Positions 15,047-55,859 of a DNA stretch of 64,000 nucleotides are shown piece by piece. The notes under the pieces were generated by a model. That model made no database searches. It saw only the letters and a list, made by a program, of their open reading frames with translations, and was not told the DNA's origin. The position numbers were made by a program, and so were the translations under genes. The stretch is from Lingula anatina (lineage: Eukaryota; Animalia; Brachiopoda), in the NCBI GenBank assembly GCA_051362555.1, contig CM120641.1, positions 14,942,001-15,006,000 on the forward strand. Direction: 5' to 3'. Every line of letters begins with the position of its first letter. Position 1 is the first letter of the stretch.

Positions 15047-15327
15047 TGAATGCATTTGCTGAATCTTTCTTAATCTACCGCCACTGACTCATTATGTCAA
15101 GGACAGTTACACGTACCATACAAAGCTACCCGTTGTCTCAACCGCTGTGGGAATTTATTATGATCGTATTTTAAAGCTAACAGGAGCGACATGTCGCCGA
15201 CTTAATGCTTCACACTGCAGACGACTATCTGGGAACATGTATGGAGCTGCTGAAATCATACTGCCTGATCATATATCAGAGGGTACTAAAAAGCAAGAAC
15301 AAACCGTTCCCGGAGCCTGGACTGCAG
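15047..15327 (+). pseudogene. Degenerate copy of folate-receptor-like exon 1 and its upstream flank
   Basis: Encodes HVADLMLHTADDYLGTCMELLKS[insertion]KSKNKPFPEPGLQ|gtagac, homologous to 40922-41098; the start codon is degraded, there is an upstream stop and a ~30-bp insertion. Confidence 0.9.
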
Positions 15328-26834: not shown

Positions 26835-29366
26835 ATGTTGTGCAAACTTGTAACTCTGTTAGTTTTCACCACGCTGTCATTGGCCTGGCGGCCGCATCAT
26901 GATTCCAGCAATTGTTCAATTGAAAATGCCCCACTGCGCCAAGATGTCATTTACAACTGCTCGGGTAGGAAGCTTCACGGCGTTCCAGTCGACTTTCCAG
27001 ACAATGTCACGGTGATCGATTTATCCTACAATCGAATCACCAGCATAACGCCGGGTAATTTCGCTCATCTGCGTAATCTCAGTCGCCTGTACCTGTCGGA
27101 CAATCGCATAGGAAAACTTGAGTTGGGTGCATTTGTAGATGTCCCTAATTTACGAGTGTTGAATCTACGATCTAATTACTTACGAATGGATTACGAGTCA
27201 TTTCCACGAGGCGTTTTTAAAAATCTGTCCCAATTACAATGGTTAGATGTAAAAAACAACACCAACCGTTACCCACAACCGAACGAAAACTATCCTGACG
27301 AGACCTTCAAAGACTTGGCGGGTTTAACAGAACTATATCTGGACGGACTTAATATGGAGAATTCTGTTCTTGGCCCAGGATTTGCTTCTCTTAAAAGATT
27401 GCGTTTATTGGATTTTTCTGGAGATAACGGACGCTGCAGTCTAAAGAAATTAAGTAAAAATGTATTTTACAATTTACGCAATCTTCAATTGGAGCATCTC
27501 GATCTAGCGTTTTGTGAACTGTATAAAATTGATAACTTAACTTTCAGCTTTCTACAAACAATCAAGACTCTTGATATTTCAGGTAACAAATATCTTGGAT
27601 TAAATAGACTGGGAGGAGTTTTTTATGGATTACAAAATTCATCTTTAGAGCGGCTAATACTGAATGCAACAACGTCTCCAGATGATAGAACGTACAAGCT
27701 GTACAGTAGTCGTGTTTTTCATTACCTCCGGAACATTACAACACTAAAACATTTAACTCTCGACACTAATTACATATCAGATCTTGAATCAGACACGCAC
27801 ATGTACGTGGAACATTTAGAAACCCTCTCCCTTTCCGATAACACGTTCCTTAACGCAGTCAAGCCAGCGTTTGACTTGTGCCATTTGCAACATCTTAAGT
27901 ACCTCAACTGGAGCTGGACATTTAGATCTAAACCTGGGATACTGTTCAAACAGCAATTAAGACGTGGAGAGTTAACGATTAATGTTGCTGCCCCCCCAAA
28001 AGTGGAGGTAGCTGATTTTAATAACAACAAATTGCAATGTCCGCTGAACCACATCATTTTGCACAACTCTACATCCATCAGGTTTCTAAACTTATCAAAC
28101 AATAATTTCTATGAATGGAATGGACCATGGGAAGTATTTGATAGCTCGCTTCGAAAGATGCATACTCTAGACCTCTCGGGTAACGGCTGTAGAAAAATCA
28201 GTGAGTGGTTCTTTTATAATTTTTCTACAACTCACATTTTACATTTACAGAATAATAAACTCGGACAATCTGACACTATAGCAAATGGCTCATATTCAAG
28301 TCCGTTTCGGTGGCTCGCCAATTTAACGTACTTGGATTTGTCTTCCAACGAAATGGAAAAAGTTTCCCCAACTTTGTTCAACAATAATACCAAGCTACAG
28401 ACAGTTATATTGAGAAACAATTATCTTACATCGGAAGGATTAAATCTTGACTTGAAAAACATATCCTTCTTGGATCTAGCCTACAATAATCTGGATTCTC
28501 TGAATGACAAAATGATGTTTGTATTAGACGACGTCCAATCACGAGAAAATTTGGTAAATGTGGTCGTAAATTTGGCGAGAAATCCGTTGCAGTGCATATG
28601 TGAAACTGAACAATTTTTCGTCTGGATGCAAAAAACAAAAGTACAATTTGTCGATCAAGATGACTATCAATGCACCCTAAAAAATGGAAGCATCGTTAGT
28701 ATAAAACAACTTTCTGCGATCATTGGACACCTCAAAGTCACGTGCGCTTCTAAACTTACTTTGACACTTGTGTCTGTTGCTGTTTCACTCGTAATCGTTA
28801 CTGTTGTCGCGTCTGCGGTGTATTACAGATTCAGATGGGAAATTAAGTATTTCTTTTATAAATTACGAATAAGACGCAAAGAATACGAAGAAGTTCACGG
28901 AGATGATAACTATCAATATGACGCTTTCGTGGCCTTTAGCAAGGAAGACTACAAGTGGGTGTACAGACAACTGCGACCCAATCTAGAAGACGCAGAAGCC
29001 GAGCAAGAGCGACTCCGTTTATGCCTTCATCATCGTGACTTCCTACCTGGTGAAGACATCGAGGAAAACATTATCCAATCTATCTCACAAAGCAGAAAAA
29101 CAGTTTTGGTGATAAGCCAAAATTTCGTGCGCAGCAACTGGTGCTACTTCGAAATGAAAATGGCGCGCATGCGATTGTTTGAAGAGGGAAAAGACGTCCT
29201 TGTTCTGATTATGTTGGAGGACATTCCATTCCGTGAAATGAATGACACCCTGTTTCATTTGTTTAAATCAAAAAGTTATTTGGAGTGGCCTGACAATCAA
29301 AGAGACCAAGAGCTTTTTTGGAAAAAGATAAGAATGGTACTAAAAAGAAATAATGATGGGGTTTAA
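26835..29366 (+). CDS. Toll-like receptor paralog 2, 843 aa
   Basis: Same SP-LRR-LRRCT-TM-TIR architecture; TIR nearly identical to paralog 1. Confidence 0.97.
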   Translation: MLCKLVTLLVFTTLSLAWRPHHDSSNCSIENAPLRQDVIYNCSGRKLHGVPVDFPDNVTVIDLSYNRITSITPGNFAHLRNLSRLYLSDNRIGKLELGAFVDVPNLRVLNLRSNYLRMDYESFPRGVFKNLSQLQWLDVKNNTNRYPQPNENYPDETFKDLAGLTELYLDGLNMENSVLGPGFASLKRLRLLDFSGDNGRCSLKKLSKNVFYNLRNLQLEHLDLAFCELYKIDNLTFSFLQTIKTLDISGNKYLGLNRLGGVFYGLQNSSLERLILNATTSPDDRTYKLYSSRVFHYLRNITTLKHLTLDTNYISDLESDTHMYVEHLETLSLSDNTFLNAVKPAFDLCHLQHLKYLNWSWTFRSKPGILFKQQLRRGELTINVAAPPKVEVADFNNNKLQCPLNHIILHNSTSIRFLNLSNNNFYEWNGPWEVFDSSLRKMHTLDLSGNGCRKISEWFFYNFSTTHILHLQNNKLGQSDTIANGSYSSPFRWLANLTYLDLSSNEMEKVSPTLFNNNTKLQTVILRNNYLTSEGLNLDLKNISFLDLAYNNLDSLNDKMMFVLDDVQSRENLVNVVVNLARNPLQCICETEQFFVWMQKTKVQFVDQDDYQCTLKNGSIVSIKQLSAIIGHLKVTCASKLTLTLVSVAVSLVIVTVVASAVYYRFRWEIKYFFYKLRIRRKEYEEVHGDDNYQYDAFVAFSKEDYKWVYRQLRPNLEDAEAEQERLRLCLHHRDFLPGEDIEENIIQSISQSRKTVLVISQNFVRSNWCYFEMKMARMRLFEEGKDVLVLIMLEDIPFREMNDTLFHLFKSKSYLEWPDNQRDQELFWKKIRMVLKRNNDGV

Positions 29367-31925: not shown

Positions 31926-34451
31926 ATGTTGTGCAAACTTGTAACTCTGTTAGTTTTCATCACGCTGTCATTGGCCTGGCGGCCGCATCATGATTCCAGC
32001 AATTGTTCAATTGAAAATGCCCCACTGCGCCAAGATGTCATTTACAACTGCTCGGGTAGGAAGCTTCACGGCGTTCCAGTCGACTTTCCAGACAATGTCA
32101 CGGTGATCGATTTATCCTACAATCGAATCACCAGCATAACGCCGGGTAATTTCGCTCATCTGCGTAATCTCAGTCGCCTGTACCTGTCGGACAATCGCAT
32201 AGGAAAACTTGAGTTGGGTGCATTTGTAGACGTCCCTAATTTACGAGTGTTGAATCTACGATCTAATTACTTACGAATGGATTACGAGTCATTTCCACGA
32301 GGCGTTTTTAAAAATCTGTCCCAATTACAATGGTTAGATGTAAAAAACAACACCAACCGTTACCCAAAACCGAACGAAAACTACCCTGACGAGACCCTCA
32401 AAGACCTGACGGGTTTAACAGAACTATATCTGGACGGACTTAATATGGAGAATTCTATTCTTGGCCCAGGATTTGCTTCTCTTAAAAGATTGCGTTTATT
32501 GGATTTTTCTGGAGATAACGGACGCTGCAGTCTAAAGAAATTAAGTAAAAATGTATTTTACAATTTACGCAATCTTCAATTGGAGCATCTCGATCTAGCG
32601 TTTTGTGAACTGTATAAGATTGATAACTTAACTTTCAGTTTTCTACAAACAATCAAGACTCTTGATATTTCAGGTAACAAATATCTTGGCTTAAATAGAC
32701 TGGGAGGAGTTTTTTATGGATTACAAAATTCATCTTTAGAGCGGTTAATACTGAATGCAACAACGTCTCCAGAAGATAGAACGTACAAGCTGTACAGTAG
32801 TCGTGTTTTTCATTATCTCCAGAACATTACTACATTAAAACATTTAACTCTCGACACTAATTTCATATCGGATCTAGAAAATAACACCCACGTGTACTTG
32901 GAACATTTAGAACTTCTCTCCCTTTCCGATAACACGTTCCTTAACGCAATCAAGCCAGCGTTTGACTTAAGCCATTTGCAACACATTAGGTACCTCAACT
33001 GGAGCTGGACATTTAGATCTAAACCTGTGGTGCAGTTCGAACAGCAATTAATACATGGACAGTTCAAGTTCAACTGTTTTTCACCTCCAAATTTAGAGGT
33101 GGCTGACTTTAATGACAACAATGTGCGTTATCCACTCAACCACATCATTGTTCATAACGCTACGTCTCTCAGGTTTCTAAACTTATCAAACAATAATTTC
33201 TATGAATGGAATGGACCATGGGAAGTATTAGATAACTCGTTTCAGAAGATGAGTACTCTAGACCTCTCAGGTAACGGCTGTAGAAAAATCAGTGAGACAT
33301 TCTTCTGTAATTTTTCGACAACTCAATGTTTACATCTGCACAATAATAAACTCAGATATTCTGAAACTATATCAAATGGCTCATATCCAAGTCCGTTTCG
33401 GTGGCTCGTCAATTTAACATACTTGGATTTGTCTTCCAACGAAATGGAAAAAGTTTCCCCAACTTTGTTCAACAATAATACCAAGCTACAGACAGTGATG
33501 TTGAGAAACAATTATCTTACTTCGGATGGATTAAATCTTGACTTGAAAAACATATCCTTCTTGGATCTCGCCTACAATAATCTGGACTCTCTGAATGACA
33601 AAATGATGTCTGTATTAGACGACGTCCAATCACGAGAAAATTTGGCAAATGTGGTCGTAAATTTGGCGGGAAATCCGTTGCAGTGCATATGTGAAACTGA
33701 ACAATTTTACGTCTGGATGCAAAAAACAAAAATACAATTTGTCGGTCAAGATGACTATCAATGCACCCTAAAAAATGGAAGCAGCGTTAGTATAAAACAA
33801 CTTTCTGCAATCATTGGACACCTAAAAGTCACGTGCGCTTCTCAATTTACTTTGACACTCGTGTCTGTTGTTGTTTCACTCGTTATCGTTACTGTTGTCA
33901 TGTTTGCGGTGTATTACAGATTCAGATGGGAAATTAAGTATTTCTTTTATAAATTACGAATAAGACGCAAAGAATACGAAGAAGTTCACGGAGATGATAA
34001 CTATCAATATGACGCTTTCGTGGCATTTAGCAAGGAAGACTACAAGTGGGTGTACAGACAACTGCGACCTAAGCTAGAAGACGCAGAAGCCGAAGAAGAC
34101 CGACTCCGTTTATGTCTTCATCATCGTGACTTCCTGCCAGGTGAAGACATCGAGGAAAACATTATCCAATCTATCTCACAAAGCAGAAAAACAGTTTTAG
34201 TTATAAGTCAGAATTTCGTGCGCAGCAACTGGTGCTATTTCGAAATGAAAATGGCGCGCATGCGATTGTTTGAAGAGGGAAAAGACGTCCTTGTTCTGAT
34301 TTTGTTAGAGGACATTCCATTCCGTGAAATGAATGACACTTTGTTTCATTTGTTTAAGTCAAAAAGTTATTTAGAGTGGTCTGAACACGAAGGTGCTCAT
34401 GACTTATTTTGGAGAAAGCTAAAAATGGTCCTGAAAAGAAAGAACATTTAG
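31926..34451 (+). CDS. Toll-like receptor paralog 3, 841 aa
   Basis: ATG at 31926 is homologous to the paralog 1 and 2 starts (MLCK); same architecture; divergent C-terminus WSEHEGAHDLFWRKLKMVLKRKNI. Confidence 0.97.
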   Translation: MLCKLVTLLVFITLSLAWRPHHDSSNCSIENAPLRQDVIYNCSGRKLHGVPVDFPDNVTVIDLSYNRITSITPGNFAHLRNLSRLYLSDNRIGKLELGAFVDVPNLRVLNLRSNYLRMDYESFPRGVFKNLSQLQWLDVKNNTNRYPKPNENYPDETLKDLTGLTELYLDGLNMENSILGPGFASLKRLRLLDFSGDNGRCSLKKLSKNVFYNLRNLQLEHLDLAFCELYKIDNLTFSFLQTIKTLDISGNKYLGLNRLGGVFYGLQNSSLERLILNATTSPEDRTYKLYSSRVFHYLQNITTLKHLTLDTNFISDLENNTHVYLEHLELLSLSDNTFLNAIKPAFDLSHLQHIRYLNWSWTFRSKPVVQFEQQLIHGQFKFNCFSPPNLEVADFNDNNVRYPLNHIIVHNATSLRFLNLSNNNFYEWNGPWEVLDNSFQKMSTLDLSGNGCRKISETFFCNFSTTQCLHLHNNKLRYSETISNGSYPSPFRWLVNLTYLDLSSNEMEKVSPTLFNNNTKLQTVMLRNNYLTSDGLNLDLKNISFLDLAYNNLDSLNDKMMSVLDDVQSRENLANVVVNLAGNPLQCICETEQFYVWMQKTKIQFVGQDDYQCTLKNGSSVSIKQLSAIIGHLKVTCASQFTLTLVSVVVSLVIVTVVMFAVYYRFRWEIKYFFYKLRIRRKEYEEVHGDDNYQYDAFVAFSKEDYKWVYRQLRPKLEDAEAEEDRLRLCLHHRDFLPGEDIEENIIQSISQSRKTVLVISQNFVRSNWCYFEMKMARMRLFEEGKDVLVLILLEDIPFREMNDTLFHLFKSKSYLEWSEHEGAHDLFWRKLKMVLKRKNI

Positions 34452-35381: not shown

Positions 35382-35447
35382 GACACATGTATGGAGCTGT
35401 TGAAATCACACAGCAAGAGCAAACCGTCTCCGGAACTCGGACTTGAG
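35382..35447 (+). pseudogene. Truncated folate-receptor-like exon 1 (3' third only)
   Basis: DTCMELLKSHSKSKPSPELGLE|gtagag; 5' part lost by deletion. Confidence 0.85.
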
Positions 35448-37153
35448 GTAGAGATTTACATGTATCTGAATATTTAACGCTCAGTTAAACTTATCTACAG
35501 CGTATTGGAATCAACTTGGCCCACCAGTACATGTGCATGTGTTTTATCCGTTTTATTAACGTGGTGGTCTCAGGCAAGTTTATACTACCATTATGTAATA
35601 GACACTAGATGTAGGTCAATACTTTACAAACAGGGGGAAGTCAGAATGTGTGTACATGTATGTATGTATGTACAAACTATTTATATACTCGCGTATATGC
35701 ATAGAAAGAAAAAAACATGCCCCCCCCCCCTCACACCAAACAAGTTACGAAAGGTGAGAAACTTTAAATGTCTACCTCTGTACGAGCTAGGACACGCAGT
35801 CCCGGTACTTATACATGTAGTGCCCTTATTTAACCAACAGCATCTTACGGAAATACATGTAAGCATTATACACGTCACCCAAGGGCTTAGTTCGAATAGT
35901 CTTTTTTGATGAAAAGAGGGTTTAGTAAAAATACTGAAAGGGATAACAAGTGTGCGTATGAGATTTGTATTTCACATATGAGATTCATAAATTGTAAACA
36001 ACTCATAAAAATATAATAAATTCAATTTTACCACCTAAACGGCGGTTATCGCAATTATTTTGGAATCTGTGCTTGTCATCAGACCACGTGGACCTTATCT
36101 ATACGTACATACACATAAAGATATATACACCTCCGTAAAAATCTCCAAAGAGTTTATTATAAAATCAATTTTTTAGAAAAAGACCATGGACTAACTTTGA
36201 ATGCTTGCAGATTCATTAACCTGGTAAGTATGGGAAAATCGTCGTTTACCCCTGGAAAATTAGTTTTTTGGCCAAAACTAACGGCTGCTATCCCTTGAAT
36301 AATCCATTTTTTACGTGTTATATTTTTTGTGAGGCGACCGCTGGCCTCGTGTCTGCCTCTTGGGAACATTAAGGAGCCGACTGACGGAACAAGTTAGTTT
36401 TTTTTAAGAAGCAGCGGCGATTATGGTCGTTGCGCTGGGAGTGAGAAGTCCGAACAGGATGACGTCTCGTTTCTACGAACAGTAAGGTTGAACTAGTTGA
36501 ATATGGCACAACTCCCCCTACCCAGGTCGCCAAAGTAGTAGCTTTCAGAATGAAGACTACTGAGTATACCGCAGAAAATAGTTTCAGGCCAAGAGAGAGC
36601 CAGCCTAGGGCATATTTCTAGCTAAAATGTAATCAGTGGAACAGCGCCCCCGTTGAGTTAATATCATATATAAAAGTTATATCTGTCATCAATAAACTTC
36701 CTACAGTGTACATCACATATCGGTGACATCTCTGTATAGAGTAGTAGGCCACTGATTGTTATCATCCACATCCAGCTGGAAAAAAATTCTCAGCGCAATT
36801 ACCCACCTCAAAGAAACACTTTTCAAAATAATCCACCTTTCTGGGCTTTGCCATGTGCCTGGGTCTCTCATGGGCCTATAACATTACTGTCACACCTGCT
36901 CCCTGGACCACCACAAACATCCACATTCCAGGCTCTGTCAGCAAGCAAACATTATCATATGATTGTATTAGGCTGTGTAGTAGTAGTAGTAGTTTATTAT
37001 CATCACTGTATGCGTATGATTACATAATAAATATCTAGCGAGCAGAACATTACATACAGGGATAAATGATCAATAAAGGCATTACAAGTATAATATGTAG
37101 CGCAATACAATACCATGACAAAAACTTATAGTTCGGTACACCGTTTTTAAAAG

Positions 37154-37625
37154 CTACGTTTCTGATATTTTCAAGACCTTGTATACATATGAAACGACTA
37201 AGTGCAAATTGTTCTTTGAAAATAGATCCCCTAAGGACGTATATACCAGCTCAGGGTAGGCAGAACGCGTCACTGATGTGAGCTCGCATTTGCTTATAAC
37301 ATGTACAGGGGGGTAGCTCTGTTTGCATTTCACCACACTTGCAGACACGTTCGTTCCTCTCTTTACGACACCAACGACCCGTTTCGATTGCCAATCTACG
37401 AGAACTTAGCCTAAACCTAGTAGTAGCTATGCGTAGATATTCCGGGATATCGAAGCGGTTTGCGTACATATCCCACACTTCCAGATTGGGGTTCATTTCT
37501 AAATAAGTTGTTGCTTTTGTTTGATTCGAATTTTTAAGTTGATCTTTTAGGTTTTCAATGTCCAAGTAAATATGATTGGATGTACATGTAACCACCTTCC
37601 CTATAGCTGGTGGAAGCCACTGCAT
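37154..37625 (-). mobile_element. Non-LTR retrotransposon ORF2 C-terminal fragment (frameshifted copy)
   Basis: LRIATTRFRLSSRRLAIETGRW..ERVCKCGEMQTE; 10-bp insertion relative to the 39983 copy. Confidence 0.8.
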
Positions 37626-38093
37626 TTCACCACAGACAATACCATCTCATGAGACTTATTTCTTATCGCTCCTGGAAACCTCTCTAATTATCGCTCATTA
37701 CGTACGGAGTACAGTATGCATTGCAATACAGGTGAATGTACCGTTGTATCTCTTCCGCAGCATAATAACTTATCGAAAAAGAGAATGGGGGAAATTTAAA
37801 TATTTATAACGCGCACCTTGGCACCAGCGTGCACTAAATGATTCAGCCGCCTGATAAAGACAAGACGAAGCAGTAATTTGAATAATGACTCTCTACCACT
37901 GCTACAACTACTACTGTATACCGGATGTGTAATTGTTAGAGGATAACCGCTGGGGCGTAATGGGTTAGGGGAGGGTGTTGATTTGTGCGCTGATTTTAGA
38001 GCGTGAGCACCAGTGAAAGGTGAATGTATTTGCCGAACCTTTCTTAATCTTACGTCATTGACGGACTTTGTCAAGGACACAGTTACATGAACC

Positions 38094-38270
38094 ATGCATA
38101 GCTACCCGTTGTCTCAAGCACTGTGGGCATCCACCATTGTTTTCTTAAGCTATCAGGCCCGCCATGTCGCCGACCCGAGGCTCCGCACCGCAGACGACTA
38201 TCTGGACACATGTATGGAGTTGCTGAAATCACACAGCAAGAGCAAACCGTCTCCGGAACCCGAACTTGAG
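38094..38270 (+). CDS. Duplicate intact folate-receptor-like exon 1 (possible alternative first exon or orphan)
   Basis: ATG..MHSYPLSQALWASTIVFLSYQARHVADPRLRTADDYLDTCMELLKSHSKSKPSPEPELE|GTAGAG, phase 0. Confidence 0.55.
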
Positions 38271-39982
38271 GTAGAGATTTACATGTATCTGAATATTTAA
38301 CGCTCAGTAAAACTTAGCTACAGCGTATTGGAATCAACTTGGCCCACCAGTACATGTGCATGTGTTTTATCCGTTTTATCAACGTGGTGGTCTCAGGCAA
38401 GTTTGTACTACCATTATGTAATATATTAGACACTAGATGTAGGTCAATACTTTACAAACAGGGGGAAGTCAGAATGTGTGTACATGTATGTATGAATGTA
38501 CAAACTATTTATATACTCGCGTATATGCATAGAAAGAAAAAAACATGCCCCCCCCCCTCACACCAAACAAGTTACGAAAGGTGAGAAACTTTAAATGTCT
38601 ACCTCTGTACGAGCTAGGACACGCAGCCCCGGTACTTATACATGTAGTGCCCTTATTTAACCAACAGCATCTTACGGAAATACATGTAAGCATTATACAC
38701 GTCACCCAAGGGCTTAGTTCGAATAGTCTTTTTTGATGAAAAGAGGGTTTAGTAAAAATACTGAAAGGGATAACAAGTGTGTGTATGAGATTTGTATTTC
38801 ACATATGAGATTCATAAATTGTAAACAACTCATAAAAATATGATAAATTCAATTTTACCACCTAAACGGCGGTTATCGCAATTATTTTGGAATCTGTGCT
38901 TGTCATCAGACCACGTGGACCTTATCTATACGTACATACACATAAAGATAAATACACCTCCGTAAAAATCTCCAAAGAGTTTATTATATAATCAATTTTT
39001 TAGAAAAAGACCATGGACTAACTTTGAATGCTTGCAGATTCATTAACCTAGTAAGTATGGGAAAATCGTCGTTTACCCCTGGAAAATTAGTTTTTTGGCC
39101 AAAACTAACGGCTGCTATCCCCTGAATAATCCATTTTTTACGTGTTATATTTTTTGTGAGGCGACCGCTGGCCTCGTGTCTGCCTCTTGGGAACATTAAG
39201 GAGCCGACTGACGGAACACGTTAGTTTTTTTTTAAGAAGCAGCGGCGATTATGGTCGTTGCGCTGGGAGTGAGAAGTCCGAACAGGATGACGTCTCGTTT
39301 CTACGAACAGTAAGGTTGAACTAGTTGAATATGGCACAACTCCCCCTACCCAGGTCGCCAAAGTAGTAGCTTTCAGAATGAAGACTACTGAGTATACCGC
39401 AGAAAATAGTTTCAGGCCAAGAGAGAGCCAGCCTAGGGCATATTTCTAGCTAAAATGTAATCAGTGGAACAGCGCCCCCGTTGAGTTAATATCATATATA
39501 AAAGTTATATCTGTCATCAATAAACTTCCTACAGTGTACATCACATATCGGTGACATCTCTGTATAGAGTAGTAGGCCACTGATTGTTATCATCCACATC
39601 CAGCTGGAGAAAAAATTCTCAGCGCAATTACCCACCTCAAAGAGACACTTTTCAAAATAATCCACCTTTCTGGGCTTTGCCATGTGCCTGGGTCTCTCAT
39701 GGGCCTATAACATTACTGTCACACCTGCTCCCTGGACCACCACAAACATCCACATTCCAGGCTCTGTCAGCAAGCAAACATTATCATATGATTGTATTAG
39801 GCTGTGTAGTAGTAGTAGTAGTTTATTATCATCACTGTATGCGTATGATTACATAATAAATATCTAGCGAGCAGAACATTACATACAGGGATAAATGATC
39901 AATAAAGGCATTACAAGTATAATATGTAGCGCAATACAATACCATGACAAAAACTTATAGTTCGGTACACCGTTTTTAAAAG

Positions 39983-40444
39983 CTACGTTTCTGATATTTT
40001 CAAGACCTTGTATACATATGAAACGACTAAGTGCAAATTGTTCTTTGAAAATAGATCCCCTAAGGACGTATATACCAGCTCAGGGTAGGCAGAACGCGTC
40101 ACTGATGTGAGCTCGCATTTGCTTATAACATGTAGCTCTGTTTGCATTTCACCACACTTGCAGACACGTTCGTTCCTCTCTTTACGACACCAACGACCCG
40201 TTTCGATTGCCAATCTATGAGAACTTAGCCTAAACCTAGTAGTAGCTATGCGTAGATATTCCGGGATATCGAAGCGGTTTGCGTACATATCCCACACTTC
40301 CAGATTGGGGTTCATTTCTAAATAAGTCGTTGCTTTTGTTTGATTCGAATTTTTAAGTTGATCTTTTAGGTTTTCAATGTCCAAGTAAATATGATCGGAT
40401 GTAGATGAAACCACCTTCCCTATAGCTGGTGGAAGCCACTGCAT
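39983..40444 (-). mobile_element. Non-LTR retrotransposon (CR1/L2-group-like) ORF2 C-terminal fragment
   Basis: TRFRLSSHRLAIETGRW..R.C.C...QTELHVISKC: the cysteine/histidine-rich tail that follows RT in many LINEs. Confidence 0.8.
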
Positions 40445-40921
40445 TTCACCACAGACAATACCATCTCATGAGACTTATTTCTTATCGCTCCTGGAAACCT
40501 CTCTAATTATCGCTCATTACGTACGGAGTACAGTATGCATTGCAATACAGGTGAATGTACCGTTGTATCTCTTCCGCAGCATAATAACTTATCGAAAAAG
40601 AGAATGGGGGAAATTTAAATATTTATAACGCGCACCTTGGCACCAGCGTGCACTAAATGATTCAGCCGTCTGATAAAGACAAGACGAAGCAGTAATTTGA
40701 ATAATGACTCTCTACCACTGCTACAACTACTACTGTATACCGGATGTGTAATTGTTAGAGGATGACCGCTGGGGCGTAATGACCGTAATGCGTTAGGGGA
40801 GGGTGTTGATTTGTGCGCTGATTTTAGAGCGTGAGCGTCAGTGAAAGGTGAATGTATTTGCCGAACCTTTCTTAATCTTACGTCATTGACCGACCTTGTC
40901 AAGGACACAGTTACATGCACT

Positions 40922-43854
40922 ATGCGTAGCTACCCGTTGTCTCAAGCACTGTGGGCATTCACCATTGTTTTCTTATGCTATCAGGCCCGCCATGTCGCCG
41001 ACTCGAGGCTCCGCACCGCAGACGACTATCTGGACACATGTATGGAGTTGTTGAAATCACACAGCAAGAGCAAACCGTCTCCGGAACCCGGACTTGAGGT
41101 AGAGATTTACATGTATCTGAACATTTAACGCTCAGTAAAACTTAGCTACAGCGTACTGGAATCAACTTGGCCCACCAGTACATGTGCATGTGATTTATCC
41201 GTGTTATCAACGTGGTAGTCTCAGGCAAGTTTGTAATACTTTACAAACATAGGGAAGTCAGAATGTGTGTATGTATGTATTTATATACTCGCGTATATGC
41301 ATAGAAAGAAAAAAACATGCCCCCCACACAAACCAAGTTACGAAAGGTGAGAAACTTTAAATGTGTACCTCTGTACGAGCTAGGACACGCAGTCCCTGTA
41401 CTTTACATGTAGTGCCCTTATTTAACCAACAGCATCTTACGGAAATACATGTAGGCATTATACACGTTTCCCAAGGGCTTAGTTCGAATAGTCTTTTTTG
41501 ATGAAAAGAGGGTTTAGTAAAGTATACGTACTGAAAGGGATACCAAGTGTGCGTATGAGATTTGTATTTCACATATGAGATTCATAAATTGTAAACAACT
41601 CATAAAATTATAGTAAATTCAATTTTACCACCAAAACGGCGGTTATCGCAATTATTTTGGAATCTGTGCTTGTCATCAGACCACGTGGACTTTATCTATA
41701 CGTATATATACATATAGCTATCTATACCTCCGTAAAAATCTCCAAAGAGATTATTATAAAAATATTTTTTTAGAAAAAGACCATGGACTAACTTTGAATG
41801 CTTGCAGATACATTAACCTGGTAAGTATGTGAAAATCGTCGTTTACTCCTGGAAAATTAGTTTTTTGGCCAAAACTAACGGCTGCTATCCCTTGAATTAT
41901 CCATATTTTACGTGATCGCGTTAGCACGACGTGTCAATTGCACCTCCTCACAACTTGTTAGCCCTGAGATTTTTTTTTAATCGGAACCGGCTACGGGCCA
42001 TTTCGGGCTACGGCTACGGTTTTGTTTTTCGGACAACCACACCGTGCCTTCTCACGTACAGTTGTGTACGACGCACGAAAAAGAAATTAAAATACGGACA
42101 AGATGAGACTCCATGGGGGTATCGCAAGCCAAATGTAACGGTAACTTTGGAATGAGCCTCTCCTCTCACACTCACAACCGCGCGATGGGTGAACAATGTA
42201 AGATCTGTGTGTTAAACTTATCAGCGTTAAATCCTTGTCACCTCTCCCTTCTCTAAGTGGCGAACATCCGTCGTTTAACACCCCATTTCCAGAGATTAGA
42301 TCGACCTATTTTAGATCGACCTAACTCCCTGGGGGTTCACGCTAAATAGCTGTCAGCCGGGCGGACACGAAAGTTAATTACCACCTGACAGCTTGTAGTA
42401 AGCGGGACGGACATTTAAGTCGGATTATCTGAAAGTAATCTAGTGAGACTCCCCGCGGGGATAGATCGATCTAAAATCTATGGGAATAGAGCTACCAGGT
42501 GCAATTAAATGTACCCTATATGCATCTTGTCGGTGGTTGCTTGTTTCCTGGACATTGCTTGAGCGTTTGAAACAATCTAGCAGATTGCATTAATATGTCG
42601 TTTAACGGTTAGCTTAATAATTCATGTTTTTATGACTTTTAGTGTCCCCAGTATACGAAGAAGTCGTGCTGTAAAGCGGGTGTGACAGAGGATTTTGAGA
42701 CAAAGGAAAACTGGCAGAACATCACCAGCTATGTCCACTGTCCACAGAAGAGCAGTCTGTCACCGATGTGTCACAAGATGTTCTTTGATGAACTCTGCTT
42801 TTTCCTGTGCTCACCTTATATTGGGCCGTGGATTGCCCCCGCGGTGAGAGCGAGCACGATGGCTTTATTTTGAGTCAAGACATTTTGTTTGCTTATAAAC
42901 AACACTTCTGAATAGGAAAAATAATGCTTGACAATCGCTGTTGATCATATAGTACTGATTTCACTGAGGCGCGTACTATAATTCATGTGGGGGGGGGGGG
43001 CGCTTACCCCTCTTTGATTCATATGTAATTTCTTTTTTTTTTCTTTCAAACACACACGCATGCACTTCACCATTTTACAGATGTTAGGGCTAAATTTGTT
43101 GAACATGCAGCATGAAACAGCAATCAATCATTTCACACATGAATATAGCACTATACTTTTAAATACAAATAAAACTGTATTGGACGCTTGTACTTCGTTT
43201 CAGACACATGACGAACCTGTAACCGACCGCTTCACAGACGTTCCATTGTGCGCCAGTGAGTGTAACTCGTGGTGGGAGGCATGCAAAGGAGAATATACTT
43301 GTCACGAAAATTGGTACACTGATTTTGATAGAGATGAAAATGGTAAATTCTTTACTTTTTATTTAACTGATGACTTGTGTATCAAAAATCGGATTATATG
43401 TGTGCCGCCGAAGCGTCGCAATCTTCGTTATTTGATCAAAATAAATGGTCGAAGAATATACCAGCACAAACATATACTCAAAGTCGTTTATTTCAATCTA
43501 ATCTCGTGGCACCAGTAGGTTTGTCTAGTGGGGTCGTGGTTTTCAAAAACAATGTCTTTTGCGTGATTGACTAGTTAAAACTATTATCACTAAGTAAGTA
43601 TAAATATTAAAATATATTTAACTTTCCTTTTAGGATTAAACATATGCAAAGAGGGCGCTGAGTGCAGGACGTATGAAGACGTGTACGGGACAGCTTTCCA
43701 CTTTTGTGAAATAATTTGGGATCATTCTTTTAAGGTAGTCCCAGATGAAGTGCCTTGCATGAAATTTACGTTCGATCCTTCTGGCCCGGATCCTAATGAA
43801 GCGACGGCGAGAATGGTCGCAGAGACAAGTGCAAAAATGCACGAGGAACTGTGA
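40922..43854 (+). CDS. Folate receptor / riboflavin-binding protein family, paralog A ending in HEEL (exons 40922-41098, 42643-42843, 43204-43342, 43634-43854)
   Basis: GT-AG introns with phases 0,0,1; family motifs C..H.K.KPSPE, CPQY...SCC, CFFLCSPYIGPWI, DVPLC..EC..WWEACK..YTC..NW, FCEIIW.HSFKV, CMKF.FDP...PNE; ends ...ETSAKMHEEL*. Confidence 0.9.
42282..42491. mobile_element. MITE (TAGATCGA family) in intron 1
   Basis: Near-identical inverted copy at 48670-48882; imperfect TIRs. Confidence 0.8.
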
Positions 43855-45595
43855 GGACAGAGTCATCGTCAGCTGAAGTGCTCCAAAAATCTAGAATTGT
43901 GAATAAAATGTTGGAGTTAATGCCTGAGAAATATCCATTTTTCCAAGATAATAAAGATAATTGTACTGTTGAATTGTATTGGATAGGCAAAGTATGTGCT
44001 GTGTTATGATTTGAAAAATATAGATAGAACAACTCTTTGCGACACTTTGTACATGTACATGATAAATTATTTTTTTATACAAAACTAGAATTGTTGTTTG
44101 GTTTTTCTTTTTACCTCTTTATCACCTTGCTAGTTATAGAAAAAAAAAGATAATTAAGAAGCCTTGGTAGGGAAAAAGGACGGACGGACTTAAAGAAGAC
44201 TTTCCAAAAAATACAATACAACGACCTTTAAGGTTTTAAGGCATATCCAGGCACTGTAAAACACCAAAGATAATTTGAAATATGCAAGTACATGTATTCC
44301 GAACACTGTGCAATACCCCCTTGTTCATTATTAAATATAGTGTATTCATATGGTAGATTCTTTCAATATTTTATTTCAATTTTAGGATGTAACAAGAATT
44401 TGTGAATATTTAATTGCACGTGTTATAGGTGTGAAGTATGAGAATTATTGTGCCACAAACGCACAAAAACTGGCGGACGTTTTTTTGCTCTAAGAGAATA
44501 GCATTCGATTTGGAGATTGTCATTTATCAAAGTAAAGACGTTTAAAATGAGAAAGTAAAAGAAACAAGAAACAAGACAGCTGGTGATAATAATCACATCG
44601 CCAACCAGGAAATTTATATGCGTCATTAACTAGAAAGTACTACACAAAATTATAGAAAGTAAAGTAACGTGACGTACGATACTAAAGATCAAAAAGATTG
44701 CATTCAATGAAAAATGAGTCGCAAGATTTGAACGAAATACACATCCTTACCTTCCTCTATTTGCAACAATCGCATGATTAAAATTTATGGGATTCTGGCG
44801 GCAGGATTCTGGTCGTCCACATATTTCTATTGGACATTGACCATCTTTGTCAAATTCTAAATCCAAAATACCCTTAGATATACGTTAAATTCCTGCTGTT
44901 TTCCTTTTGCTTGAGCCGTTGCTTGCATCCCTTGCTTCGTTGTACTCTGTATGGTGAATGCTTCGCAATATGCGCCCTGACTCGCACATATTTGTATCAC
45001 TGCCCTGGTCACAGGTCATTTACATGTGATAAATAAGGATCATTTTTAGAACAAACGTTTGATAATAGGTCTGAACTGAATTATACATCGGGTAAAAACC
45101 TCAAGTCAGGAATTTAAATGATGGATTTTGTAGCTTTCTCAAGGCTGACTCCTGCGTCGTGTTTACATGACCTAAATGAATATTTTTAAATATTTTTAAA
45201 AATATTTATGACCTAAATACAGCATATGATGCTATCTGATTTTAAACGTTTTTTCAGCAATTCGAGATGCATGGATTTTAGTTTATTGAGTGAATTAAAC
45301 ACTAAACCAACCACTATTTGTCACTCAAGGACATTATGAACGGGCAGTGTCCGACTTTAAAAAATAAGAAACAGAAGAAGATGACCAAGGTCACGACCCC
45401 TGCATTCGTCTTTTCAAATGTTGACCCTGGCAATACTACACACTACATAAAGAATGTGAGATATATGCAGCAGGGGTTGCTAGGGGAGTGCTACTTGTAT
45501 GGTCTGTTAATCATCCGTACAAAGAGGGGCCCTAGATTGTGTGTAGTAGATTTTAGACACTACTGTATTTGTCGGAAGAGACATCCCTGGTTTTA

Positions 45596-48124
45596 ATGGC
45601 TGGTGACCAATTTTCTCAAGCGATGTGGACTTTCTTTGTCGTTATTCTGATATGGCAGGCACTACATGTCGCCGACTCAAGGCTCCGCACTGCAGACGAC
45701 TATCTGGACACATGCATGGAGCTGTTGAAATCACACAGCAAGAGCAAACCGTCCCCGGAACCCGGACTCGAGGTAGATGAAACTTCTAATTACTGCAAGA
45801 CACGAAAAAGTACGTTTCACCCTAACCACACCTTACCGTGTCATTTATTACTTCTCAGCGCGGCCAGTGTGTAATTACTGGGGGGAAAAAGAGGGAAACA
45901 AAAATGCAGGCTTTCTGTTTACCAGTACATTATTTGCTATGAAAAGCGAGATAAAAATTTTTATTATAGGTTTCACAATATAAATTTTAGTAGTAAGTGA
46001 ATGGTTAGAGTGATATTTTAAGGTAGTAGAGGGAGTTTCCTTAGAATAATAACCAAGTTAATATGTCCAAGGAATAAGGTCTCATTCTTGGTAGGCCTGT
46101 AAGTAAGGGAGTCTACACCAAAAGTCTTAAACCTAGGGCGAAGCATACATGTATATGTACAAATTAATGGGGAACGGTCACTCTATCAAGGGGACTCTCG
46201 ATCACGTTACACCGGCAATAGAGACCTTGCACTGAGGTTATTAATTGTTCCACAAGACAAAGATGTATGCTTTTTACTGACGACTTAGCACATTTAGTGT
46301 GGTGAGTGGTCTTCAATATTTATTATGTAAGGTTTTAACCAAAATCTATACACATAAATTACACTCGCAATTGTGGAAATGGTATGAACAATATTGAGGG
46401 ACACCTTAAAGACGGTTGGAGCGGGCTTTTTCGGTTAAAAAAAAAACAGTCCATGAAATGAAGTCAACTACGATGCAGAGAGGGGCGTAGAGTCTCATTT
46501 TGTAACTGCAGCCTGCAACCAAGAGAAAGTTCTTGAGGTCACTAAACTGTTCAAAGACCTATATACATATTACAAACTATAGGTGGGAGCTGCTTAACTA
46601 AATTACCAATTGTCGTGTTAACGTCTCATCAATACGAAAAATCCCGCCGAATACGAGGAGTATTACGCACTAATCGAGATCCACCGGAGCGCCAAAGACT
46701 ATCCAACACTTTCGTCTATCCAACTTTTTAAAATACATCGTTGGATCTGCTTTTTAGTATGCAAATTTGATTATCATATGCATATGTAGTGTCAAATAAA
46801 TTCATATTTGACTTTTCAAAACAAATTCAGTGTCCCCAGTATACGAAGAAGTCGTGCTGTAAAGCGGGTGTGACAGAGGACTTTGAGACAAAGGAAAACT
46901 GGCAGAACATCACCAACTATGTCCACTGTCCACAGAAGAGTCGTCTGTCACCGATGTGTCACAAGATGTTCTTTGATGAACTCTGCTTTTTCCTGTGCTC
47001 ACCTTATATTGGGCCGTGGATTGCCCCCGCGGTGAGTGCGACAATGGTGACTCTATTTTGAGTCAAGACAATATTGTTAAATGAAAATTTGGAACTTTAA
47101 ATTTCATTGTTATGATACACACTTTTGAAAATGACCCCTCCAAAGAATTACGATATCTGTGGCAGTCATCATTTCTAGTAGTTAAAATTTTAATATCACT
47201 GTTCTACATGTACCAGTATCTGCATTCTGACACCCACATTCCCTACTATTCTCCTTTCCAAAATTCTCTTCATATTTTTTCTCTGTTACACCTACACTAC
47301 TAAATATAAACAAACAAATACCGACAATTACACATCATATATAACATAGAACAGGCTACAAAATAGCGTGGCTTTAGGATGTCATACACATATACTAATT
47401 TTTTCAGACACATGACGAACCTGTAACCGACCGCTTCACAGACGTTCCATTGTGCGCCAGTGAGTGTAACTCGTGGTGGGAGGCATGCAAAGGAGAATAT
47501 ACTTGTCATGAGAACTGGTACACTGATTTTGATAGAGATGAAAATGGTATATGTCATTCATCTCCATGTCAGTAAATATTTGTAGAAAAAAACGTGTCTA
47601 ATGTGTTATAGTAGGCCCACTTAACTTTCCTTTGACAATGCGACGCTGCTCCAGTTGACTGCTACAATATAAAAGAAAATATTGGAATACATCAGCGCAA
47701 ATACAAACAAACAAACAAACAAATAAATAAATAAATGAATGAATAAATAAATAAACAATTTAAAACCTATGTTAATATGAGGCTAATATCACTAAGATTA
47801 ATACGTAAGGCGTTTTTTTTAGGAATAAACGTATGCAAAGCTGGTGCGGAATGCAGGACGTATGAAGCCATGTACAGGACAGCTTCCAACTTTTGTGAAA
47901 TTATATGGGATCGTTCATTCAAAGTGGTCCCAGATGAGGAACCCTGCATGAAATTCACGTTTGATCCAGCTGGCCTGGATCCGAATGAAGAGACGGCGAG
48001 GAAGGCTGCAGCGTCGAGCGCTATAAGGAACCTAGGAATGTCATTTTTTCAGTGGATTTGTTCTTTTTTTCTGATACATTGTATGACCCTTTACCAAAAC
48101 TTGCCTGCATGGGTGAATACATGA
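45596..48124 (+). CDS. Folate receptor / riboflavin-binding protein family, paralog B with GPI-anchor-like tail (exons 45596[or 45623]-45772, 46831-47031, 47408-47546, 47823-48124)
   Basis: Same exon sizes (201, 139 nt) and phases as paralog A; signal peptide MWTFFVVILIWQALHVADS; C-terminus AAASSAIRNLGMSFFQWICSFFLIHCMTLYQNLPAWVNT (small residues, then a hydrophobic stretch). Confidence 0.92.
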
Positions 48125-48669: not shown

Positions 48670-48882
48670 GCTGTATTCCCAGAGTTTTTAGATCGATCTA
48701 TCCCCGCGGGGAGTCTCACTAGATTACTGTCAGATAATCCGACTTTAATGTCCGTCCCGCCTACTACAAGCTGTAAGGGGGTAATTAACTTTCGTGTCCG
48801 CCCGGCTGACAGCTATTTAGCGTGAACCCCCAGGGAGTTAGGTCGATCTAAAGTAGATCGATCTAATCTCTGGAAATGGGGT
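48670..48882. mobile_element. MITE (TAGATCGA family), inverted relative to 42282-42491
   Basis: Reverse-complement match over ~200 bp. Confidence 0.8.
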
Positions 48883-50884: not shown

Positions 50885-51895
50885 ATGAATATGAACAGCG
50901 GGTCGAGCCAGGGCTCTCTTACTACTGCCGTGGTGAATTCTACATTTGTCCACTCTCATGGAGATGTCTTATACTTCGAAACCGATTGGTATAAAGCCTT
51001 TGTTGTGTCTACTTTGTCGGTTTTAATGTTTCTGATTTGTTTCGGAAACGGCTACGTGATATTCGTCTACTTTTACGTGCGAAAATTACAAACGAAGGGT
51101 AACCTGATGATCATCCACCTCGCAGTGACGGACTTCGTCGCCGGTCTGGCCGTACCATATCATATAACGACATTTGTGGACACGTCATTGTCAGAAAACA
51201 TTTACTCGTGTATACTAAGGTACTCCTTGAATGTGTTTCCAGGAATGGCCTCACTGTTGTCATTGCTGATGATAACAGTGCATCGATACAAGGCTATCGT
51301 TCACCCGTTACAACACCAAGTCAGTAACTCTCGACGGTTTGCATGGATAACTGGAATTATGGTGTGGGTGCCATCGTTTTTATTTGGGTTCGTCTTACCT
51401 TTTATATGGCACAAAAACTGGTCCTTCGAAAGTGACAGGGATTGCGAATTTTCACTTGTGCTTACAGAGGAGTATATTTCATATACGTTGGTTCTGCCCT
51501 TCTTTCTCATAGCTATGAGTATATTTTCTCTTTACATGGGAATATTGGTCATGGTGAAAATTCGAAACAGGCGCCAAGTTGGTCCAGATAACATTGGGCC
51601 GTCGGCAACAGAATTGGCACAACAGCGTGAGATTAAACTGACAAAGACCATTGCCCTCATACTGATTGGATTTTTTCTATGCTGGGCGCCTTTCATTGTC
51701 ATTCTTGCTGTGCATTCATTTTCATATGCGCCTTATTCGACTAATGCCATTGTCATGAGAAATGCCTTCAACTTTTTGGCTGGTGGCAATTGCGGATTGA
51801 ACCCTATATTGTATGCCATCCGTTTGCCAGAATTCCGTGAACCACTGCGAAGAATTGTTTCAAAAGGCCCACAGTCACGTACTTTGACCAACTAA
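50885..51895 (+). CDS. Intronless class A (rhodopsin-like) GPCR, adenosine/amine-receptor-like orphan, 336 aa
   Basis: Seven hydrophobic segments; GN (TM1), LAVTD (TM2), HRY (TM3), W (TM4), CWAPF (TM6), NPILY (TM7), helix 8 EFR. Confidence 0.93.
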   Translation: MNMNSGSSQGSLTTAVVNSTFVHSHGDVLYFETDWYKAFVVSTLSVLMFLICFGNGYVIFVYFYVRKLQTKGNLMIIHLAVTDFVAGLAVPYHITTFVDTSLSENIYSCILRYSLNVFPGMASLLSLLMITVHRYKAIVHPLQHQVSNSRRFAWITGIMVWVPSFLFGFVLPFIWHKNWSFESDRDCEFSLVLTEEYISYTLVLPFFLIAMSIFSLYMGILVMVKIRNRRQVGPDNIGPSATELAQQREIKLTKTIALILIGFFLCWAPFIVILAVHSFSYAPYSTNAIVMRNAFNFLAGGNCGLNPILYAIRLPEFREPLRRIVSKGPQSRTLTN

Positions 51896-52047
51896 CTGTA
51901 AGCAGACTCATTCAACTAACTGATTCAACAGAACTTTCCATCCTTTATACCTGCTTCATTTGCATTTATTCCCAACTATACTACCAGTAGGTCAGTTCAA
52001 AAGAACTGAAATAAGCTGTAACATCGTAGTGTTTTAGTTACTTTACA

Positions 52048-54258: not shown

Positions 54259-55859
54259 GGTAGATCGGTCGTTACATGTTCCAACGTTCGAATTTTAAAA
54301 AAAATTTTTTTGTTTGAAGAGACACCCAAGTACATTAAAAATTTGCAAAAAAAATTGGGGGTCACCGATCAAATAAGAGAACTAGCCCCAAATATGATAC
54401 ACCCTGCATATCGCACTAGTCCCCATTCAAATCAATGGGAAAATGGGTGTTTTCTCACTAAAGCATTATTTTTTATGACTTTCTGACGTTTGAATTTTTA
54501 AAAAAATTTTTTTGTGTAAAGAGGCCTCCAAGTACATTTAAATTTTACCAAAAAAATTGGGGGTCACCGACCAAATAAGAGAACTACGCCAAGTTGAAGT
54601 GCGCTACACCCTGCGTGACGCACTAGTCCCCATTCAAATCAATGGGGAAATGGGTGTTTTTCACCAAAACGTTATTTTTTATGATTTTTCTAACGTTTGA
54701 ATTAAAAAAAAACTTTTTTTGTGTAAAGAGGCATCCAAGTAGATTTTAATTTTGCCAAAAAAGTTGGGGGTCACCGACCAAATAAGAGAACTACGCCAAG
54801 TTGAAGTGCGTTACACCCTGCGTGACGCACTAGTCGGAAGTCCCCATTCAAATCAATGGGAAAATGGGTGTTTTTCACTAAATCGTTATTTTTTATGATT
54901 TTTTTGTGTGTGTGTGTGTGAAGAGACATCTAAGTACATTTAAAACTTTCATTATGTTTAACAGTTGAAGTGAGTATACTCAGCTATTTTCAGATTTGTC
55001 AAACTGATGAGAAGGTGTAAGCCATTAACTTTACAATAAAATTATTGAAGAGAATAATAAGGGAAATATTCATCCATATGAAAATAGTTTATTGCTGTTG
55101 TTATTTATTAACGAATATAACATGAACGTGACATCGTAAACACTGTGTTGTCAAGTAAAATGAAGCGTCTGATACAAAGTATCAAATGCGGCATTCACGT
55201 GCTTGCTTGCGGTGCGTTCAGTACACTCTGTTTACACTGACAAGTCAAGGTCAGAAGTGCACAATTTTTCTGTATAATATAACGCAGTTTCAATTTTGAT
55301 TAGTGAATTTTCTTCAAGCTGTAGACCCTATGGCCATTTTCTGAACATTTGTATAAGCTACGAAATATTTCTCAGTCTAAATTTCTCTAAGTCCAAATGA
55401 GTGGGGTTACGACGCACTTCCGGTTTTCGTCGAAATCTAAACTACAGCAGCACATTCAGGGCGTTCTACCTCAAAATATACGCAGCCGCTTTGATTGGAA
55501 TTTACAACACTTATTCTTTACATGACATAGCACCTACGTGCATAATTTGTGAGCTTTAGCTGTCATACATTTTCTAGTGCCAATTCAAATTGGAAAAGGA
55601 GCTATTCCAACGATTTCTTGAAGGGCAAGTCTATGAACGTGCTACAGTTGTCGTATGGAATCATAGTCGACAAACGTTGTCGAAAATCTGTATCGATCAT
55701 ACAGAGTTACAGACAAGTTGATAATGTGTGTTTATCTTACAGATAATTGTTTTATTTCCTTAAATTAATAAAACCGACTGAAATGTCGTTAGAGACGATT
55801 GACGATGCGCTGAAATTGCGCAAATCGTCAAATTACCGGTACGTAACGACCGATCTACC
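54259..55859. mobile_element. Kolobok-like non-autonomous element with an internal ~205-bp tandem array
   Basis: TIR GGTAGATCGGTCGTTAC / GTAACGACCGATCTACC; TTAA TSD at 54255-58 and 55860-63; GGGGTCACCGA at ~54357, 54560, 54767. Confidence 0.85.

What the first reader, a model, noticed from the sequence alone, without database searches (positions are those of the whole stretch)
42643..47546. Exon-restricted homogenisation: binding-domain exons 2-3 nearly identical while introns and the targeting exon diverge
Exon 2 (42643-42843 vs 46831-47031) and exon 3 (43204-43342 vs 47408-47546) differ at only a few nucleotides, synonymous sites included, and exon 3 is identical in protein. Introns do not align beyond ~40 nt after the exon 2 donor, and exon 4 and the signal peptide are clearly diverged. 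Inference: gene conversion keeps the ligand pocket the same while sorting signals stay distinct, which supports both copies being functional.
Basis: partly seen in the sequence, partly recalled or inferred. Interest (0 to 1): 0.7.

Follow-up and report, generated by a model that had tools for sequence, protein, structure and literature searches.

The report
Twin receptor genes share middle exons
Two neighbouring copies of a folate-receptor-like gene in a brachiopod are almost letter-identical in their two middle exons but long diverged in their introns and last exon, likely because short patches keep being copied between them, which makes this a clean new example of a known process.

Summary
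Two tandem four-exon folate-receptor-family genes (A, B; gene A matches a Lingula anatina protein exon by exon at 100%) differ at 4 of 201 bases in exon 2 and 3 of 139 in exon 3. Synonymous divergence is 0.05 and 0.12 there, against 0.67 in exon 4 (p about 1e-5). The introns align no better than shuffles, except 46 nt after exon 2. Contigs from two other DNA runs collapse the copies at these exons, so this is not a polishing artefact. A roughly 10%-diverged lineage carries a synonymous change that, by depth, sits in both copies, and a Ser/Arg variant occurs at both loci. Recurrent interlocus gene conversion is the best explanation (0.85). The functional reading is only partly right. Exon 4 is not just a targeting exon: it holds 42 codons of the domain and the W171/S174 pocket residues. 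Only 3 of 11 human folate contacts are kept, so the ligand is unknown. A is transcribed and spliced; no B-type exon 4 reads appeared in two RNA runs. A ends in HEEL, unique among 119 relatives. Exon-restricted conversion beside an unalignable intron is already described in Tigriopus GOT1. Interest 0.3.

The parts
40922..41098 (+). Gene A exon 1, coding part: ATG, predicted signal peptide, start of mature domain
   Evidence: Open frame with hydrophobic stretch and GT donor; RNA reads at the exon 2 start continue into an A-type exon 1 end
42643..42843 (+). Gene A exon 2 (homogenised; D81 and Y85 equivalents)
   Evidence: 4 of 201 differences to B; RNA depth about 25 and spliced
42844..42889 (+). 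5' end of A intron 2, still similar to B (partner 47032-47078); likely an older tract or a relic
   Evidence: Score 55 vs shuffle maximum 48; 27 of 33 identical beyond the donor consensus
43204..43342 (+). Gene A exon 3 (homogenised; 7 of the 11 positions that contact folate in human FOLR1)
   Evidence: 3 of 139 differences, all silent; collapsed contig at about four-copy depth in X10
43634..43854 (+). Gene A exon 4, coding part: end of the domain (W171, S174 equivalents), C-terminal helix, ends HEEL-stop
   Evidence: spliced RNA reads and 3' UTR depth to about 44050
45596..45772 (+). Gene B exon 1, coding part
   Evidence: P0002 residues 1-59 match exactly
46831..47031 (+). Gene B exon 2 (homogenised)
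47408..47546 (+). Gene B exon 3 (homogenised)
47823..48124 (+). Gene B exon 4, coding part: end of the domain and a hydrophobic tail, predicted GPI-type signal (borderline)
   Evidence: Translation and hydropathy, best 13-residue mean 1.81; dS 0.67 and dN 0.11 to A over the first 58 codons

Best explanation
Two old tandem copies of a folate-receptor-family gene stay nearly identical in exons 2 and 3, likely through repeated short DNA-level gene conversion that can now only act where the copies are still alike. After duplication the introns drifted beyond alignment, leaving each exon as an island of similarity 4.2 kb from its twin (shown). Conversion tracts therefore end at or near exon edges (inferred). 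Exons 2-3 are still exchanging, the mature end of exon 1 less often or less recently, and exon 4 has largely escaped (inferred from dS). Exon 4 carries the paralog-specific C-termini: A is predicted soluble and B predicted membrane-anchored. Selection against overwriting these differences is a likely contributor to the escape (about 50%), passive drift past the similarity threshold is the alternative. The ligand is probably not folate bound as in human FOLR1.
For: Silent-site mosaic: 0 of 37 vs 7 of 16 four-fold sites, p=7e-5. Family-wide protein conservation is similar across exons (0.39, 0.42, 0.40 over 41 relatives) and three other homologue pairs do not show the pattern; GC3 is 0.37-0.60 in exons 2-3, so no extreme codon bias. 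Run X10 (about 10% intron difference from the window): one exon 3 contig at depth 95.7, against 41.3 for A exon 4 and 44.8 for B exon 4, carries C at 43246, where window A and B, X5, X12 and X15 have T. Position 42754/46942: Ser in window A, P0001 and P0002; Arg in window B and in both X5 contigs covering it (166.3 of 166.3 depth), so both states occur at both loci. Shared polymorphism is described as a very strong indicator of conversion (PMC3924837, passages). The three neighbouring TLR genes also show a three-way mosaic, p=1e-4.
Against: The lineage-shared change is a single site; chance parallelism in 68 silent sites has probability up to 0.32 if silent sites diverge like introns. Assignment of contigs to paralogs rests on depth, not on phased reads, and 106 difference rows were not shown. 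One X5 B-linked contig has about 9 exonic differences from A in the 3' half of exon 2 (inferred from counts), so homogenisation is not fixed in all B haplotypes. No third sequence was available for GENECONV or per-exon DNA trees. Direction and non-reciprocity were not tested.
Confidence: 0.85

Rival explanations
1. Exons 2-3 are held still by selection on the DNA itself (splicing elements, RNA structure or codon use), with no exchange between copies.
For: Purifying selection acts on the protein (dN 0-0.013 in mature exon 1 to exon 3). Few exon 2-3 differences between X10 and the window appear among the rows shown.
Against: Constraint would have to cover all 37 four-fold sites. Silent sites do change between lineages (42693, 43246), and 43246 changed in both copies together; under strong constraint (d=0.02) a parallel change has probability 0.016. 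It does not explain Ser and Arg at both loci.
Confidence: 0.04
2. Assembly collapse or polishing wrote one copy's exons over the other's.
For: Near-identical exons do confuse assemblers: X5 record 16 appears to join a non-A intron 2 to A exon 3-4.
Against: Contigs built from two other runs (studies P3 and P4, not the studies of the two best holders) merge at the first 31 letters of exon 2, and in X10 also of exon 3, with B-type intron ends as loose ends and summed depth. A database B model that differs from window B at 6 of 83 exon 4 residues still matches A at 113 of 114 residues of exons 2-3. The window keeps 7 differences between the copies in these exons.
Confidence: 0.03
3. The donor is a reverse-transcribed spliced RNA of the expressed copy A, which would confine copying to exons by design.
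For: Identity stops at exon edges on three of four exon 2-3 borders, and A is the copy seen in RNA.
Against: All three introns remain in both genes, whereas cDNA recombination across junctions would be expected to delete them (established knowledge). Similarity runs 46 nt into intron 2. At 42693 and 42754 X5 has the window's B state in all copies, which does not show A as the sole donor.
Confidence: 0.05
4. A single unequal crossover or recent segment duplication replaced the middle of one gene.
For: Unequal-crossover-like tandem units lie next to gene A (35382-41914).
Against: One continuous event would carry intron 2 with exons 2 and 3, yet intron 2 does not align beyond 46 nt.
Confidence: 0.03

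Closest known systems
Tigriopus californicus GOT1Sd/GOT1Sr paralogs (PMC3728101; abstract and one Results section read)
   Same: Inter-paralog conversion largely restricted to exons, next to an intron too diverged to align; the abstract says conversion did not keep each copy functional in all populations.
   Different: There the sequenced coding regions are alike throughout; here one exon of similar length has escaped and carries different C-termini.
Arabidopsis halleri HMA4 tandem copies (bioRxiv 10.1101/2025.10.29.685298; abstract and one Results section read)
   Same: Mosaic divergence; long introns escape conversion; shared polymorphisms in coding sequence; fixed differences concentrated in terminal exons.
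   Different: Short introns are still converted there and divergence is a few percent; here all introns have escaped.
Primate red/green opsin genes and the peak-of-divergence model (as reviewed in PMC3924837; passages)
   Same: A diverged exon within converting duplicates, read as selection protecting a difference.
   Different: Opposite polarity: opsin introns are homogenised, which isolates the selected peak. Here the introns are diverged, so exon 4's divergence does not by itself show selection.
Vertebrate folate receptor family (FOLR1/2, Juno, riboflavin-binding protein; Pfam PF03024)
   Same: Pfam score 130.6 vs cut-off 29.8; predicted fold pLDDT 94, TM 0.81-0.84 to FOLR1/2. A paper on gene conversion among primate folate receptor genes exists (Petronella and Drouin 2014; title seen in a reference list only).
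   Different: Only R106, W171 and S174 of 11 folate contacts are identical; D81E, Y85F and W138F are conservative; W102, R103, H135, K136 and W140 are replaced. A has no anchor.

Membership tests
Folate receptor family (PF03024) | Profile match above the curated cut-off | tested here: met
   130.6 bits vs 29.8, E 6.9e-38 for P0001
Folate receptor family (PF03024) | Cysteine-rich folate-receptor fold | tested here: met
   15 Cys in P0001, 14 invariant and 1 nearly invariant in 43 sequences; model TM 0.81-0.84 to FOLR1/2
High-affinity folate receptors (FOLR1/FOLR2 type) | Folate-contact residues D81, Y85, W102, R103, R106, H135, K136, W138, W140, W171, S174 | tested here: not met
   3 of 11 identical, 3 conservative, 5 replaced; mapping from a sequence alignment to 4lrh
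High-affinity folate receptors (FOLR1/FOLR2 type) | C-terminal GPI signal | tested here: inconclusive
   Absent in A; B tail borderline hydrophobic (1.81) and different in model P0002; no GPI predictor available
High-affinity folate receptors (FOLR1/FOLR2 type) | Measured folate binding | not testable with these tools
   Needs a binding assay
Interlocus gene conversion (concerted evolution) | Mosaic silent divergence with significant runs of identity | tested here: met
   Heterogeneity p=4e-5; run test p=5e-4
Interlocus gene conversion (concerted evolution) | Polymorphism shared between paralogs | tested here: met
   Ser and Arg at 42754/46942 each seen at both loci; locus assignment in X5 is by depth and intron linkage
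Interlocus gene conversion (concerted evolution) | Paralogs group by lineage in the converted part and by locus elsewhere | tested here: inconclusive
   One lineage-shared site (43246) in exon 3; exon 4 of X10 separates into A-like (5 differences) and B-like (28) contigs; no tree could be built
Interlocus gene conversion (concerted evolution) | Non-reciprocal transfer | not testable with these tools
   Needs phased haplotypes or pedigrees
KDEL-receptor clients (ER-retrieved soluble proteins) | C-terminal [KRHQSA]-[DENQ]-E-L on a protein with a signal peptide | tested here: met
   A ends HEEL; motif definition and a human HEEL protein in PMC2140024 (passages); signal peptide is predicted from hydropathy only
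KDEL-receptor clients (ER-retrieved soluble proteins) | Motif conserved among relatives | tested here: not met
   1 of 119 proteins whose match reaches the C-terminal part has the motif (A itself); 4 more end in EL or EF
KDEL-receptor clients (ER-retrieved soluble proteins) | Motif-dependent ER localisation | not testable with these tools
   Needs cell imaging; in PMC2140024 the human HEEL protein stayed in the ER without its motif

The most novel reading that the evidence does not exclude
The pair is one binding core kept uniform by conversion but delivered to two compartments: A lost its anchor, gained a working HEEL signal and became an ER-resident folate-receptor-fold protein, a location not seen in any relative examined, while B stays on the cell surface. 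Selection blocks conversion of exon 4, where five amino-acid changes with no silent change lie in 43663-43710.
Probability: 0.15. Interest if true: 0.55.

Novelty: new member of a known kind. Interest (0 to 1): 0.3.

Why it matters
It is a compact case of conversion persisting in 140-200 bp exon islands after the introns have lost similarity, with cross-lineage and population hints from public reads. It warns that dating or tree-building from the middle exons would make this old pair look very young, and that short-read assemblers can mis-join such genes. If A is truly ER-retrieved, it would extend the folate-receptor fold to a new compartment and an unknown ligand. The process itself is well known.

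Tried and rejected
No whole genome is held for the window, so other copies on the scaffold and genome-wide conversion rates could not be checked. No close relative with an A/B pair turned up in three protein searches or among the best 150 of 451 cluster representatives (its best hit of single-domain length is 53% identical), so no per-exon tree was built. No RNA holder was listed among indexed runs; this is no evidence on expression. Reads were laid on gene A exons 2-4 only, so gene B and both exon 1 copies were not examined directly. A's sequence after its stop looked like a remnant of B's tail in protein alignment, but the DNA score was no better than shuffles (p=0.29): rejected as evidence. 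The X5 contig that seems to join B intron 2 to A exon 3-4 was not used as evidence of a real chimera, because its loose letters were not shown and an assembler artefact is plausible. Codon bias and higher protein constraint on exons 2-3 were tested and rejected. Literature: a search for Lingula with folate receptor gave 5 papers, all medical by title and none on brachiopods; two phrase searches for exon-only conversion gave 0 papers and one gave 1 unrelated paper. The library lacks most subscription papers, so absence from print is not shown. Three papers were not held. No supplements were opened; those of PMC3728101 list the conversion tracts. Earlier scan notes by place and by sequence were empty.
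Full report
What is there. The region holds two tandem four-exon genes on the + strand. Gene A: 40922-41098, 42643-42843, 43204-43342, 43634-43854. Gene B: 45596-45772, 46831-47031, 47408-47546, 47823-48124. All introns are GT-AG. Database protein P0001, labelled Lingula anatina folate receptor beta, matches A at every residue it covers. P0002, on a contig of the same length, matches B exactly in exon 1, at all but one residue in exon 2 and at 77 of 83 in exon 4, then has another tail. I read P0002 as another allele or haplotype of B; a third paralog is not excluded. The protein is a folate-receptor-family member by Pfam and by predicted fold (pLDDT 94; TM 0.81-0.84 to human FOLR1/2).

Observation. 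Exon 2 differs at 4 of 201 bases (2 silent, 2 replacement) and exon 3 at 3 of 139 (all silent). dS is 0.29 in mature exon 1, 0.05 in exon 2, 0.12 in exon 3 and 0.67 in the first 58 codons of exon 4. At four-fold sites exons 2+3 differ at 0 of 37 and exon 4 at 7 of 16 (p=7e-5). The longest silent-identical run is 57 codons against 24 expected (p=5e-4). Introns 1 and 3 and the flanks align no better than 200 shuffles; intron 2 aligns for 46 nt after the donor only.

Not constraint. Protein identity to 41 relatives is 0.39, 0.42 and 0.40 for exons 2, 3 and 4, and in three other homologue pairs exon 4 is about as conserved as exons 2-3 or more so. GC3 is unremarkable. Protein constraint and codon bias therefore do not explain the silent identity.

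Not an artefact. I laid 4 of 21 listed runs on 42520-44150 at 80% likeness. In both DNA runs the A-type intron 1 contig ends 30 letters past the last A/B difference, where the two genes begin to share 31-letter words. X10 shows B's intron 1 end and intron 2 start as loose ends, and X5 shows the intron 2 start. In X5 a 46-letter contig at depth 160 splits into A-type (100.7) and B-type (63.7) intron 2 contigs. The identity is thus present in other animals' reads. These contigs are unphased, and 106 difference rows, 13 loose-end rows and 25 contig pieces were not shown.

Signs of exchange after lineages split. X10 differs from window A by about 10% in introns (48 differences over three contigs with 488 intronic letters). 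Its A exon 4 contig has depth 41.3 and its B exon 4 contig 44.8. One exon 3 contig of depth 95.7, at least 97 letters long, carries C at 43246 (TTG to CTG, silent), where window A and B, X5 and all 57 RNA reads have T. By depth, both paralogs changed together. One site is weak alone: parallel change has probability 0.32 at intron-like rates and 0.016 under strong constraint, while zero A-B differences in both lineages over that stretch has probability 0.024 and 0.47. Neither no-exchange model fits both facts well. At 42754/46942, Ser occurs in window A, P0001 and P0002; Arg occurs in window B and in both X5 contigs that cover the site, one B-linked at depth 35.3 and one at 130.9. Both states therefore occur at both loci, a pattern described as a very strong indicator of conversion (PMC3924837, passages). 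X12's exon 1 end has B's letter at one diagnostic site and A's at the next. Against a simple picture, the B-linked X5 contig has 16 differences from A over 160 letters; about 7 are intronic, so one B haplotype seems less homogenised in the 3' half of exon 2 (inferred). Three neighbouring TLR genes change closest partner along their length (p=1e-4), so exchange between tandem copies is likely common here.

Mechanism. Conversion needs local similarity (established knowledge; HMA4 long introns escape it). Once the introns diverged, exons were the only substrate, which explains exon-bounded identity without selection. The 46-nt intron flank and the retained introns favour a DNA donor over a cDNA donor. 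Why exon 4 escaped is open. Its differences start at the first codon, about 200 bases before A's stop, and dN/dS is about 0.16. One stretch (43663-43710) has 5 replacements and no silent change, and B's SNF there matches P0003 and P0005, suggesting derived changes in A. Selection to keep the exon distinct is plausible but not shown.

Function. Human FOLR1 contacts folate with 11 residues (PMC9055165, passages). By alignment to 4lrh they fall in exon 2 (2), exon 3 (7) and exon 4 (2). Only R106, W171 and S174 are identical, and two of those three lie in the diverged exon 4, the same in A and B. The pocket is thus the same at these positions in both copies, but partly by selection on the protein, and the ligand is unknown. 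A is transcribed and spliced (exon 2-3: 17 and 29 reads; exon 3-4: 16 and 27 reads, in X12 and X15). None of 90 and 149 laid reads was under 90% alike, so B-type exon 4 was not seen; about 6% of each run was read and the tissues are not known to me. Two X15 reads carry B's letter at 42693, in the opposite orientation. B has an intact frame in the window. A ends in HEEL, which fits the Prosite ER motif (PMC2140024, passages), but it is the only such ending among 119 of 161 fetched proteins whose match reaches the C-terminal part; 78 of the 119 have hydrophobic tails and several other Lingula paralogs are short and anchorless. A is most simply a soluble form; ER retrieval is possible.

Comparison and verdict. 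Exon-restricted conversion beside an unalignable intron is described for Tigriopus GOT1Sd/GOT1Sr, mosaic conversion for HMA4, and conversion among primate folate receptor genes by title. Earlier scan notes returned the opposite polarity (homogenised introns) in other genomes; they are unchecked leads and did not change my reading. This is a new, fairly well evidenced member of a known kind. Interest 0.3; the most novel reading (ER-resident versus surface twin) has probability 0.15.

Noticed in passing
window 35382-41914: Tandem units of about 2.83 kb (89-95% alike) carry two extra copies of gene A exon 1: 38096-38270 with ATG, open frame and donor, and 35382-35447 cut at its 5' end. RNA reads in X15 match the proximal copy.
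   Followed up: partly
window 15133-15327: Degenerate copy of the same exon 1 with an in-frame stop and a 30-nt insertion, upstream of the TLR genes; no partner exons found in the window.
   Followed up: partly
window 18805-21333, 26835-29366, 31926-34451: Three single-exon Toll-like receptor ORFs (LRR and TIR shown for the first; 841-843 aa). Copies 2 and 3 are 96-100% alike in the 5' 900 bases, while copies 1 and 2 are 96-99% alike at the TIR end; informative sites cluster, p=1e-4.
   Followed up: partly
window 42280-42492, 48670-48882, 22688-22805: A roughly 210-nt element with terminal inverted repeats, likely a MITE: in A intron 1, inverted downstream of B (95%), and partial elsewhere.
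   Followed up: no
window 43198-44116 (run X5, record 16): A 1623-letter contig follows A from exon 3 through the 3' UTR but has 343 unaligned letters to the left, the length and breakpoint expected of B intron 2; no B exon 4 contig was laid for X5. Real chimera, assembler artefact or mis-phased window.
   Followed up: partly
window 43663-43710: Five replacement and no silent differences between A and B in 16 codons of exon 4, just before the W171 equivalent.
   Followed up: partly
window 48062-48070: T run in B's tail; database model P0002 leaves the window's reading here and ends in a non-hydrophobic tail, so the anchor signal may vary between haplotypes or the model may be wrong.
   Followed up: no
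window 50885-51898: Single-exon rhodopsin-family GPCR ORF, 336 aa or more (Pfam 7tm_1, E 3e-40).
   Followed up: partly
window 54279-54902: Tandem array of about three units of roughly 205 nt, 81-87% alike.
   Followed up: no
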